A stretch of DNA of 14,184 bases from a virus (lineage: Duplodnaviria > Heunggongvirae > Uroviricota > Caudoviricetes). Within the stretch, counting starts at the first letter, position 1; every line of letters starts with the position of its first letter. Shown piece after piece: positions 1 through 3,000 of this stretch. The stretch lies in the IMG/VR virus record IMGVR_UViG_2541047119_000008; one strand, given 5' to 3'. The position numbers are program-made.

Positions 1-3000
1 AAGTCTCTCCGTCCCAGTGGGTGGCAATAGGTGTGCTGGGAAGTCTGCTGTTTGGCCTGCTGACGTATCTGACAAATCTTTATTTCAAGATTAAAGAAGA
101 TAAGCGTAAGGCTGCGAGAGGTGAATAATGTCGCCATCATTACGCAAGGCTGTTGCTGCTGCTATTGGTGGTGGGGCTGCTGCCATAGCGTCTGTGCTCA
201 TCACTGGTCCGAGTGGTGACGATGGCCTGGAAGGTGTCAGCTACATACCATACGAAGATATCGTTGGCGTATGGACTGTATGTCACGGACACACCGGAAA
301 AGACATCATGCCCGGTAAAACGTATACCGAAGCAGAATGCAAAGCCCTCCTGAATAAAGACCTTGCCACGGTCGCCAGACAAATTAACCCGTACATCAAC
401 GTCGATATACCGGAAACAACGCGCGGCGCTCTTTACTCGTTCGTTTACAACGTGGGCGCTGGCAATTTCAGAACATCGACGCTTCTTCGCAAAATAAACC
501 AGGGCGATATCAAAGGCGCATGTGATCAGCTACGGCGCTGGACATACGCTGGCGGTAAGCAATGGAAAGGGCTGATGACTCGCCGCGAGATTGAGCGTGA
601 AGTCTGTTTGTGGGGGCAACAATGAGCAGGGTAACCGTTATTATCTCCGCTCTGGTTATCTGCATTATCGCCTGCCTGTCATGGGCTGTTAATCATTACC
701 GTGATAACGCCATCGCCTACAAAGAGCAGCGCGATAAAGCCACATCCATCATCGCTGATATGCAGAAGCGGCAACGTGATGTAGCAGAACTTGACGCCAG
801 ATACACAAAGGAGCTTGCTGATGCTAATGCGACTATCGAAAGTCTCCGTGCTGATGTTTCTGCTGGGCGTAAGCGCCTGCAAGTCTCCGCCACCTGTGCA
901 AAGTCAACGACCGGAGCCAGCAGCATGGGCGATGGAGAAAGCCCAGGACTTACAGCAGATGCTGAACTCAATTATTACCGTCTCCGAGGTGGAATCGACA
1001 AGATAACCGCGCAGGTTAACTACCTGCAGGAGTACATCAGGACGCAATGCCTGAAATAATTTTTTTTGCAAATCACAAAGTCCATTTAATGAGCCTCGCG
1101 ATGCGGGGCTTTTTGCAATAAATGCGTACCGCAACGCATGTTTTTTACACCGAACCTGCCCCTTTGGAATGGGCCTTTGAGGATACCAGTTAGTGCTGGC
1201 GAGCCTCGGTGGGCTGGTTTCCTGTGCGGCAAAGGTTCATTTCAAAGAGTAGGTACACGCTATGAAATCATTAACCCTCTTCAATCAACCAATCCGTATC
1301 GGTGAAGATGGCATGATCTGCCTCACTGATATGTGGAAAGCCAGTGGTAAAAGTGAATCTGAATCTCCGTACCACTACCTGCGAAACAAGCAGACCAAAG
1401 AGTTCTTGGCTGAGCTGGAGAAAAACCACGAATCTGTGGTTTTTACGGAACGCGGTGCGCACGGTGGAACTTATGGCGGAAAGTTCGTTGCTTATGATTA
1501 CGCAGCATGGCTAAACCCCGGATTTAAATATGCAGCCTATAAAGTCCTCGATGATTACTTCACCGGAGAGCTTCATCATCGGAACAGCTTAAGTGCGCAG
1601 CTCAACATGAAATGTCATGAGTTTGATCAGAAAAAAGACATGGCGAGCTTCTGTGGACAAGGCCTCGCGGCATGGCGCTACACGAAACCTGGTTTGATCG
1701 CTGAAATTAACTCCCTGGCTAACCAGTTGCAGATTTCGATCCCCGGGCTTCCGGGATGAGTGATCGTGTCATTGAATGCGCCTCCAGAGCGGGGCGCGAC
1801 TTCTCAGAGTTCATGAAAGGCGAGAAGGGTATGATGGAAGCATTGGCCTCGGTGGATGAGTTTGGCGAGCAGCTGCGCCTCAACGGCTGTGTCAATCATC
1901 ACTTTGTTAGCTACATGATGCGGAACTCGATCATGCAGGCATTCATGGACATGGCAAAAGCCGAGAGGAAAGAAGAGCGCCGGCGTAAGCGAGCGGAAGC
2001 AAAAGCGAAGTAGCCATTACAAAGCCCATCTACTGGTGGGCTTGATAATGGCTTATACCCTACACGGGATAACTTAACTGATATCCCTTTTAACGGATAA
2101 AGGTATTCAAGCCTGACACATCATGCGCTGTATCGTCGCTGTATTCCCGCATTAACCATGACCGTAGCCCGACGGGGAACTCCTTCTGCGCGAGTGTGCG
2201 GGAATAATCAAAAACGATGCACACCGGGTTTTTACCGCGCTAATGATTCGCGGGTTTGTCCCTCATGCTCGCCAGTCCTGTGCGGGGGTGGAAGAAACAG
2301 GACACTCACACAGATTCTTGTGGGTCGATGCTATTCCTTTCTGGATTATCCCGATGCCATTCATGCAAGGGCTGTATCAGACGTTCGTCATGGCTTTCAG
2401 GCTGACGGCTCCTCCCGGTGGGGTGGCCTGCCACGGGGCGGGAGCGTCGCGGAAAAAGGCTAGTTTTTGCATTTTTATCGGCCACCATCATCTTTGCATC
2501 TTATTGATTATTAATGGTTATTTGTTTTTTGTATGTCGAATTGAGTGTTTTTTGTTCGACATCGAACGCGTTTTCTTAAAGTTGTTCGCACGATGCATGT
2601 TTAAAGCTCTCCGGAGGAAATATGGATCATGAGTTGAAAAACCTGGTGCTGAATATTAATCAACTGGCGGCTTTATCTGGTCTGCACCGCCAGACTGTCG
2701 TGGCAAGACTGAAAAACATTCGTCCCGCTGGTGGACATGACAAACTCAAGCTATACCGGTTGACCGATATTCTGACTGAATTTATGGGGTTACCACCGCC
2801 GGTTGCTGAGGGCGAAATGGATCCACATGAACGCAAAGCCTGGTATCAGTCTGAACGTGAGCGTCTTAAGTTCGAACAGGAAACGGCACAACTCATTCCG
2901 GCCAGTGATGTCAGACGGGAGTTTGCCATCTGGGCAAAAGCGGTCGTGCAGGTGCTGGAGACATTACCGGATATTCTGGAACGTGACTGTGGTCTGCAGC

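What the first reader, a model, noticed from the sequence alone, without database searches (positions are those of the whole stretch)
1060..2050. Two-gene accessory insert (KilA-N domain protein plus small basic-tailed protein) between the lysis cassette and cos
Lambdoid phages keep a variable cargo slot between Rz and cos (lambda has bor there). Here the slot holds a 165 aa KilA-N-like protein translationally coupled (ATGA overlap at 1756-1759) to an 85 aa protein ending in a Lys/Arg/Glu-rich tail. Two tandem terminator-like hairpins (1093-1114, 1122-1146) lie upstream and a stem-loop (2029-2050) downstream, suggesting a separately regulated unit. KilA-N proteins are poorly characterised, so this pair is the most plausible undescribed accessory function in the window, but the sequence gives no direct functional evidence. 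The two ORFs could also be one gene split by a frameshift (combined ~250 aa).
Basis: inference. Interest (0 to 1): 0.5.

Follow-up and report, generated by a model that had tools for sequence, protein, structure and literature searches.

The report
Rha-like KilA-N gene pair after lysis genes

Summary
ORF 1262-1759 is KilA-N plus ORF11CD3. ORF 1756-2013 is an 85-aa three-helix protein with a basic tail, and the two overlap by ATGA. The flanking hairpins are real.

The pair is not new as sequence. It is 100% identical to gp49/gp50 of Stx2 phage 1717, about 93% identical to HK620 hkbK/hkbL, and present in 389 of 5,426 complete E. coli genomes.

Both genes are under purifying selection, so the frameshift idea is refuted.

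The large protein is the positional and C-terminal-domain counterpart of P22 Rha. The small gene always follows a KilA-N gene of either type. Diverged KilA-N genes exist without it.

No promoter was found. The upstream terminator-like hairpins belong to the phage backbone, and the nearest relatives lack the cassette. It is most likely a dispensable cassette read only as part of the late transcript, encoding a DNA-binding regulator of the Bro/Rha network. The target is unknown.

The downstream hairpin (2012-2053) is a covarying element that closes every kind of cargo found after Rz, including in P22. It has no Rfam family and is the most novel item here.

The parts
1091..1114 (+). Terminator-like hairpin 1 (GAGCCUCGC-GAU-GCGGGGCUU, then U-run), part of the phage backbone after Rz
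   Evidence: Fold. The same hairpin follows Rz in relatives without the pair (mEp460 and 569R4) and in Dewey.
1122..1146 (+). Terminator-like hairpin 2 (AUGCGU-ACCGCA-ACGCAU, then GUUUUUU)
   Evidence: Terminator scan and fold.
1147..1261 (+). Leader without a recognisable promoter. The leader varies between phages: similarity to HK620 starts at 1189 in the sensitive search (1257 by megablast) and to Dewey at 1257.
   Evidence: No + strand promoter-like site. Boundaries.
1262..1759 (+). Gene for a 165-aa KilA-N (nt 1286-1564) plus ORF11CD3 (nt 1586-1744) protein
   Evidence: Pfam and PHROG 129/10441. AF2 pLDDT is 83.5, with a mixed beta/alpha head and a helical hairpin at residues 86-156. dN/dS is 0.03-0.07.
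1756..1759 (+). ATGA stop/start overlap, implying translational coupling
   Evidence: Sequence. The junction is conserved in other loci.
1756..2013 (+). Gene for an 85-aa three-helix protein with an Arg/Lys-rich C-terminal helix (PHROG 875)
   Evidence: and alignment A1. AF2 pLDDT is 93.8 and dN/dS is 0.04-0.15. The family has only 21 representatives among 1.84 billion proteins.
2012..2053 (+). Composite stem-loop that closes the cassette (outer stem CCATTAC/GTAATGG, covarying inner stem)
   Evidence: No Rfam family.
2054..2101 (+). Conserved tail after the hairpin, with two GGATAA-type imperfect palindromes; shared with phages that lack the pair

Best explanation
This is a mobile, dispensable two-gene cassette of the Bro/KilA-N/Rha domain-shuffling network. 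It sits in the variable slot after the lysis genes of a mEp460/cdtI-like lambdoid phage.

Shown:
- Gene 1 combines a KilA-N head with an ORF11CD3 helical hairpin. It is the counterpart of P22 Rha, which lies in the same slot and has the same C-terminal domain behind a different head.
- Gene 2 is a small helical protein with a conserved basic C-terminal helix. Its start overlaps the stop of gene 1, and it is never found without a KilA-N gene immediately upstream.
- A stable hairpin follows its stop codon.

Inferred:
- The cassette has no promoter of its own and lies behind two terminator-like hairpins. It is therefore transcribed only by Q-modified polymerase as part of the late transcript, not in the lysogen.
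- The two proteins are made in a fixed ratio by translational coupling.
- Gene 1 binds DNA through its KilA-N head.
- The pair acts late in infection as a non-essential regulator or anti-repressor-like factor, on other DNA elements in the cell or on the host, rather than in lysis or packaging.
- The small protein modulates this activity or adds a nucleic-acid contact through its basic helix.

The molecular target is unknown.
For: Identity and domains.

Relation to Rha: P22 rha lies between gene 15/Rz1 and gene 3. It is Phage_pRha plus ORF11CD3 (E 1e-27) and aligns with residues 98-163 of the window protein (35% identity, E 6e-8). A Rha-like gene in phage Bas106 occupies the same slot with 57% identity over the C-terminal 46 residues.

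Linkage: a KilA-N/ORF11CD3 gene lies directly upstream of the small gene in 80 of 80 IMG/VR loci and in Klebsiella. KilA-N/P63C partners occur in HK97, HK022, mEp234, Scandinavium, Raoultella and Trabulsiella. In Trabulsiella the pair persists with the small protein at 54% and the KilA-N domain at 27% identity to the window proteins.

Selection.

Dispensable and mobile: the pair is absent from the nearest relatives mEp460 and 569R4 and degraded in cdtI. The same cassette lies in front of at least four unrelated packaging modules and, in Klebsiella and Raoultella, among tail genes.

Late-only expression: no promoter, terminator-like hairpins upstream, and always the same orientation as the late genes.

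Basic tail as a nucleic-acid contact: in remote relatives P0189 and P0191 the tail is replaced by a T5orf172/MUG113 domain. That is a Bro-network module, and one member (PLE CapR) is reported to be a DNA-binding repressor (PMC10111431).

Regulator or anti-repressor leaning: other KilA-N/ORF11CD3 or P63C genes lie next to Arc-type repressor genes, as P22 ant does.
Against: - No experiment on this pair or on HK620 hkbK/hkbL was found.
- The natural role of Rha itself is unknown.
- The promoter scan is a consensus scan, so a weak or activator-dependent promoter cannot be excluded.
- The small protein is 97.6% identical between phages whose upstream KilA-N proteins are not detectably similar in sequence to the window's. 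This argues against a co-evolving protein-protein interface and leaves open that the two proteins act independently.
- Diverged KilA-N/ORF11CD3 genes do without the small gene.
- Fold searches gave no functional analogue for either protein.
- DNA binding by the KilA-N head rests on the family's reputation, not on a test here.
Confidence: 0.55

Rival explanations
1. Host-killing function with a modulator. Like P1 KilA, the KilA-N protein would block host growth or division when made, and the coupled small protein would temper or direct that activity.
For: The protein is 29% identical to P1 KilA over residues 17-127. P1 KilA kills the host on overexpression and is non-essential (PMC8201110). The dependence is asymmetric: the small gene always has a KilA-N gene upstream, but not the reverse.
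Against: The C-terminal part differs from P1 KilA, with no KilAC/ANT domain. P1 kilA lies in the lytic-replication operon with repL, not in the late operon. A killer made minutes before lysis has little to add. An almost invariant small protein is paired with very different KilA-N proteins.
Confidence: 0.15
2. Prophage-encoded defence against other phages (BstA-like abortive infection or exclusion), expressed in the lysogen.
For: BstA has a KilA-N-like N-terminal domain (PMC8585504). There is a weak hit to the PADLOC candidate PDC-S22 (E 1e-8). The slot carries lysogen-expressed cargo in other phages.
Against: No promoter was found, terminator-like hairpins lie upstream, and the orientation matches the late operon. 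The protein is 165 aa and PADLOC returned no BstA model, only PDC-S22. The BstA experiments placed bstA next to the repressor gene c2, not after Rz.
Confidence: 0.12
3. Selfish mobile cassette with no benefit to the phage, spread by recombination at conserved boundary hairpins or by neighbouring homing endonucleases.
For: The cassette has sharp boundaries (1257 and about 2050) and is present or absent among close relatives. The boundary hairpin is duplicated in HK97 and HK620. The same HNH_3-AP2 endonuclease (93% identical) lies just upstream of two different cassette types in two genera.
Against: Strong purifying selection on both proteins across saturated synonymous divergence implies a function that matters to some replicator. 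The endonuclease is immediately adjacent in only 2 of 232 loci. No nuclease motif was found in either protein.
Confidence: 0.1
4. Accessory factor for DNA packaging or cos recognition, given the position just upstream of the terminase genes.
For: It is adjacent to terS/cos or pac in most phages. In HK97-like phages the neighbouring gene is an HNH endonuclease, which from my own knowledge is needed for cos cleavage.
Against: An identical small protein, always preceded by a KilA-N/ORF11CD3 gene, lies in front of at least four unrelated terminase systems and among tail genes in Klebsiella and Raoultella. The pair is absent from the closest relatives that have the same terminase.
Confidence: 0.03
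5. A single ~250-aa gene split by a frameshift.
For: PHROG 129 is 273 positions long and the protein covers only the first 174.
Against: The small protein does not match PHROG 129. The two-ORF layout is kept in all loci. Each ORF is under purifying selection in its own frame. The small gene also follows a different, complete KilA-N/P63C gene.
Confidence: 0.01

Closest known systems
P22 / phi80 Rha (P22 orf201)
   Same: It occupies the same slot, directly after the Rz/Rz1 genes and before the packaging genes, in the late-operon orientation. It has the same C-terminal ORF11CD3 domain, with 35% identity over 68 residues. The same kind of composite hairpin lies downstream.
   Different: The N-terminal head is Phage_pRha, not KilA-N. 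P22 has no coupled small gene. The Rha phenotype, inhibition of growth in IHF-deficient hosts (PMC4936722), is untested here. No IHF consensus site exists in the window.
HK620 hkbK/hkbL, Stx2 phage 1717 gp49/gp50, phage 2851 'kilA'
   Same: It is the same cassette. The proteins are 93-100% identical, with the same overlap and the same position.
   Different: Nothing of substance differs. All are annotated only as 'KilA-N domain-containing protein' and 'hypothetical protein', and no functional work was found.
HK97 gp73 + HK97p61 (also HK022, mEp234)
   Same: The slot is the same and the small gene is the same (96-98% identical). The upstream gene is again a KilA-N gene.
   Different: The upstream protein is KilA-N plus P63C (242 aa). 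Its KilA-N domain is not detectably similar in sequence to the window's. The junction is stop, 2 nt, then ATG. The HK97 copy of the small gene is frameshifted.
P1 KilA
   Same: It has a KilA-N head, 29% identical over about 110 residues, and is non-essential.
   Different: The C-terminal region differs. It lies in an operon with repL rather than in the late operon, and is known for killing the host.
BstA (prophage BTP1)
   Same: It has a KilA-N-like N-terminal domain and is encoded by a prophage.
   Different: BstA is a two-domain protein whose KilA-N-like region alone spans residues 32-147. It acts in the lysogen and has a DNA self-immunity element, aba, at its start. None of this applies here.

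Membership tests
KilA-N domain proteins (Pfam PF04383) | Match to the family profile above the curated cut-off | tested here: met
   58.4 bits against a 23.8 cut-off, residues 9-101. The AF2 model shows a mixed beta/alpha head. The fold match to the APSES domain of Mbp1 is weak (E 0.84) and is not counted as support.
Bro-network proteins with an ORF11CD3 tail (Pfam PF10549) | C-terminal ORF11CD3 domain above the cut-off | tested here: met
   47.5 bits against a 25 cut-off, residues 109-161. It is a full-length homologue of D3 orf11, after which I take the domain to be named (28% identity, 91% coverage).
Rha (P22/phi80) | N-terminal Phage_pRha domain (PF09669) | tested here: not met
   No Phage_pRha hit. 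P22 Rha has it.
Rha (P22/phi80) | ORF11CD3 C-terminal domain and a position after the spanin genes in the late operon | tested here: met
Rha (P22/phi80) | Product inhibits phage growth in IHF-deficient hosts, and the gene is regulated by IHF | not testable with these tools
   The phenotype is known only from the literature (PMC4936722). No exact IHF consensus (WATCAANNNNTTR) occurs in the window.
BstA abortive-infection proteins | Two-domain protein (KilA-N-like domain plus a second domain) that acts in the lysogen | tested here: not met
   The protein is 165 aa with an ORF11CD3 tail. It is co-oriented with the late genes, has no promoter, and has terminator-like hairpins upstream. Features taken.
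BstA abortive-infection proteins | Cognate aba DNA element overlapping the gene start | not tested
   No aba-like terminal direct repeats were looked for.
P22 Ant-type antirepressor modules (immI) | Own promoter controlled by neighbouring Arc/Mnt-type repressors | tested here: not met
   There is no promoter and no Arc/Mnt gene in the window. Some distant family members do have Arc neighbours.
P22 Ant-type antirepressor modules (immI) | Binds and inactivates a phage repressor | not testable with these tools
   Needs biochemistry or genetics.
Morons (own knowledge of the usual definition: own promoter plus terminator, expressed from the prophage) | Sigma-70 promoter upstream | tested here: not met
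Morons (own knowledge of the usual definition: own promoter plus terminator, expressed from the prophage) | Terminator downstream | tested here: inconclusive
   There is a very stable hairpin directly after the stop codon, but no U-run follows it.
Intrinsic terminators (hairpins at 1091-1114 and 1122-1146) | GC-rich stem followed by a T-run | tested here: met
   The second is found by the scan and both fold as expected. Termination activity itself is untested.

The most novel reading that the evidence does not exclude
Two readings are not excluded.

(a) The composite hairpin at 2012-2053 belongs to an undescribed structured element. It closes every cargo cassette in the slot after the lysis genes in lambdoid and P22-like phages. 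It could work at the RNA level, for example as a processing or stabilising site in the long late transcript, or as a recombination linker that drives cassette exchange.

(b) The 85-aa protein is a dedicated partner for KilA-N proteins. Its Arg-rich C-terminal helix would bind nucleic acid, possibly that very hairpin, which would make the cassette a self-contained protein plus RNA/DNA unit.
Probability: 0.25. Interest if true: 0.5.

Novelty: already known. Interest (0 to 1): 0.25.

Why it matters
The pair is carried by many Shiga-toxin phages and about 7% of complete E. coli genomes, yet nobody knows what it does. The same is true of Rha, its better-known relative.

This work narrows the question. 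The cassette is dispensable and most probably expressed only late. It is not a packaging or lysis component, and not a broken gene. The small protein is tied to KilA-N genes of two architectures.

This gives a clear, cheap set of experiments in tractable phages such as HK620, HK97 and Dewey.

The boundary hairpin may help explain how cargo is swapped in this slot, or how late transcripts are processed.

Tried and rejected
- Sequence searches of both proteins against PDB chains found nothing meaningful.
- Foldseek of both AF2 models against PDB, and of the small protein against BFVD, gave only generic helical matches with E > 0.1. The afdb50 library was not available.
- NCBIfam gave nothing.
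- PADLOC gave only a KilA-N-level hit to the candidate PDC-S22.
- A possible Cys/His metal site in the small protein (C8, C45, H48, H49) was dropped because C8 is Ser or Ala in the remote relatives P0178 and P0189.
- An IHF site, looked for by analogy with rha, is absent.
- Rfam gave one chance hit far below its gathering score.
- Literature searches for hkbK/hkbL, ORF11CD3, KilA-N in late operons and expression in O157 found no functional data. The primary Rha paper (PMC177009) is not held.
- The longer database forms of the small protein are frameshift or deletion fusions, not true fusions.
- A complex prediction of the two proteins could not be run with the tools given.
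Full report
**What is there.** The window is the late region of a lambdoid phage whose head and tail genes match mEp460, cdtI and vB_EcoS-569R4 at 96-98%. Upstream of the finding lie a lysozyme (128-625) and an Rz spanin (610-1059). Downstream lie a DUF1441-type small terminase (2622-3113) and a gpA-type large terminase (3113-5215). The second has no Pfam or NCBIfam match and falls in PHROG 875, function unknown.

**It is already catalogued.** The segment 1-2302 is 98.7% identical to Stx2 phage 1717. 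The pair is 100% identical to gp49/gp50 of that phage and to the 'kilA' gene and its neighbour in phage 2851. Against HK620 hkbK/hkbL, the KilA-N protein is 93% identical and the small protein 100% identical. It covers at least 80% of the query in 389 of 5,426 complete E. coli genomes, with identical copies in many O157:H7 strains, annotated as 'KilA-N domain-containing protein' and 'hypothetical protein'. IMG/VR holds 316 loci that encode the small protein. I found no functional study of it.

**Two real genes, not one broken gene.** Pairwise dN/dS is 0.03-0.07 for gene 1. For gene 2 it is 0.04-0.15 in all comparisons except those with Trabulsiella, where it is about 0.3. Synonymous divergence reaches saturation. 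The two-ORF layout is kept in all 80 IMG/VR loci examined and in Klebsiella, Raoultella, Scandinavium and Trabulsiella. The small protein does not match the unmatched C-terminal part of PHROG 129. The few longer forms in the databases are frameshift or deletion products.

**Structure.** The small protein is predicted with high confidence (pLDDT 93.8) as three helices: 3-20, 26-42 and a long 48-84 that ends in the conserved basic stretch R75-R79. The KilA-N protein (pLDDT 83.5) has a mixed beta/alpha head followed by a helical hairpin at 86-156, which is the ORF11CD3 part. Neither model has a significant structural neighbour in the PDB, nor does the small protein in BFVD. Sequence searches against PDB chains also found nothing.

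**Who goes with whom.**
- The small-protein family is very narrow. It has 138 clusters in the 5.8-billion set, and every named source among the best 120 is an Enterobacterales species. An exhaustive profile search found only 21 representatives among 1.84 billion proteins.
- In every locus examined it is directly preceded by a KilA-N gene, but of two architectures. One is KilA-N plus ORF11CD3 (165 aa; E. coli phages and Klebsiella). The other is KilA-N plus P63C (242-251 aa; HK97 gp73, HK022, mEp234, Scandinavium, Raoultella, Trabulsiella).
- The converse does not hold. Diverged KilA-N/ORF11CD3 genes in Cronobacter, Erwinia phage phiEt88, Enterobacter, Pseudomonas D3 and others occupy the same kind of slot with unrelated small ORFs downstream, or none.
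- Alignment A2 shows the domain swapping typical of this network. Some homologues share our C-terminal half with a different head, and others the reverse.
- The small protein is 97.6% identical between the window and mEp234, although the upstream KilA-N proteins show no detectable similarity. If the two proteins touch, the contact must be to conserved features of the KilA-N fold. Independent action cannot be excluded.
- Two remote relatives carry the first two and a half helices of the small protein fused to a T5orf172/MUG113 domain in place of the basic tail. One lies next to a KilA-N/P63C gene and an Arc/Arc/Bro-N cluster in a tail region. The other lies between lysis and terminase genes. 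T5orf172 is another module of the same network, and one member (PLE CapR) is reported to be a DNA-binding repressor (PMC10111431).

**Closest characterised relative.** In P22 the gene that follows 15/Rz1 and precedes the packaging genes is rha. P22 Rha is Phage_pRha plus ORF11CD3. Its C-terminal 68 residues align with the window protein at 35% identity (E 6e-8), and a Rha-like gene in phage Bas106 aligns at 57% over the last 46 residues. HK620, a P22-like phage, carries hkbK/hkbL where P22 carries rha. The window protein is therefore a head-swapped counterpart of Rha. It is not a Rha family member in the strict sense, because the Phage_pRha domain is absent. Rha is described as a late-operon product that blocks phage growth in IHF-deficient hosts (PMC4936722), and its normal role is unknown. 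No IHF consensus occurs in the window.

**Regulation.**
I find no sigma-70-like promoter on the + strand between Rz and the ATG, even at a permissive threshold.
- The two upstream hairpins are credible intrinsic terminators. The first is also present in relatives without the pair, where it is followed directly by the composite hairpin. It is a backbone feature.
- The cassette has the orientation of the late genes in every locus where the neighbouring genes could be identified.
- The simplest reading is late-only transcription by Q-modified polymerase, with coupled translation of the two genes. This is an inference, since no expression data were found.

**Mobility and dispensability.**
- Compared with mEp460 and 569R4, the window carries an insertion between about 1115 and 2012, and those phages have other small ORFs there. 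cdtI keeps only a 5'-truncated ORF11CD3 remnant.
- In the megablast search, similarity to HK620 and the Salmonella P22-like phages runs from 1257 to about 2050; the more sensitive blastn extends the HK620 match back to 1189.
- A cassette encoding an identical small protein lies in front of lambda-type Nu1/gpA, DUF1441/gpA, P22-type gp3/gp2 and the HNH/TerS of phage 1717, which rules out a role specific to one packaging system. In Klebsiella and Raoultella the pair lies among tail genes.
- A free-standing HNH_3-AP2 endonuclease, 93% identical in the two cases, sits just upstream of the ORF11CD3-type cassette in phage Dewey and of the P63C-type cassette in Scandinavium. It is immediately adjacent in only 2 of 232 loci.

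**The downstream hairpin.**
- A hairpin follows the stop codon of the small gene in nearly every diverged copy, with different sequences.
- The composite form has a conserved outer stem (CCATTAC/GTAATGG, or TTATTGC/GACAATGA) around a variable inner stem.
- On 23 distinct variants, 95.9% of cells pair, against 27-50% when the partner is slid. Eight of 16 pairs show changes on both sides, and no shuffle reaches the observed covariation score. Caveat: the variants were collected with a pattern that fixed most outer-stem bases and were filtered by folding energy, so the figures lean towards the structure.
- The hairpin is not private to this cassette. It also follows KilA-N genes without the small gene, Rha genes (including P22 rha) and the small ORF after Rz in mEp460, each with its own inner stem. 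It occurs twice in HK97, HK620, mEp234 and HK022.
- It has no U-run and no Rfam family.
- It looks like the 3' boundary of cargo cassettes in this slot. Whether it acts as RNA or as a recombination linker is open.

**Verdict.** The 'separately regulated' and 'frameshift' ideas are not supported. The pair is an ordinary, widespread, already annotated accessory cassette of the Bro/Rha/KilA-N network whose function remains untested. My best explanation is a dispensable DNA-binding regulator pair expressed only late. The descriptive part is well supported and the mode of action is inferred. The covarying boundary hairpin and the strict dependence of the small gene on KilA-N genes are the only modestly new points.

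Noticed in passing
window 2012-2053 (also L231/P22 40310, L004/HK97 ~2955, L023/mEp460 ~2923): A composite stem-loop with a conserved outer stem and a covarying inner stem closes every type of cargo after Rz in lambdoid and P22-like phages. It is duplicated in HK97 and HK620 and has no Rfam family.
   Followed up: partly
window 2054-2101: A conserved tail follows the hairpin, with two imperfect palindromes of the TATCCC...GGATAA type (TATACCCTACACGGGATAAC and ATATCCCTTTTAACGGATAAAGG). It is shared by phages with unrelated packaging genes, and similar GGATAA motifs follow other hairpin variants. It could be a protein-binding site.
   Followed up: no
window 2431-2447: The records of cdtI and Tritos start at window 2436 and mEp460_4F5 at 2431. 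The sequence GGGCGGGAGCGT at 2436-2447 resembles the lambda cohesive end as I recall it, so cosN is probably here.
   Followed up: no
window 791-1006 (+), inside Rz: An embedded +1-frame ORF contains FLLGVSAC followed by a proline-rich stretch, which looks like the Rz1 outer-membrane lipoprotein spanin.
   Followed up: no
L232 (phage Dewey) 1444-1995; L016 (Scandinavium) 3678-4229: The same free-standing HNH_3-AP2 endonuclease (93% identical) is inserted just upstream of two different KilA-N cassette types in two genera.
   Followed up: partly
L007 (Actinobacillus phage vB_Apl-pPE4) 2471-3066: An Actinobacillus phage record carries a KilA-N/ORF11CD3 gene 93% identical in protein to the E. coli one, followed by only the first 22 codons of the small gene. 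This is either a recent transfer between families or a problem with the record.
   Followed up: no
L004 (HK97) 2501-2759; L013; L014; L012 (cdtI): Several copies are decayed. The HK97 small gene is frameshifted after codon 54. The KilA-N genes in L013 and Leclercia (L014) are frameshifted. cdtI keeps only a 5'-truncated ORF11CD3 fragment.
   Followed up: partly
L013 (contig labelled Candidatus Nanosynbacter MAG): A 4-kb contig binned as a Nanosynbacter genome carries this enterobacterial phage region, with the small protein 99% identical. This is probably a binning error.
   Followed up: no
window 2013-2302: This is a mosaic joint. The window follows Stx2 phage 1717 up to 2302 and mEp460/569R4 from 2013 onwards, so the hairpin and its tail form the shared segment where the two lineages recombined.
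   Followed up: partly
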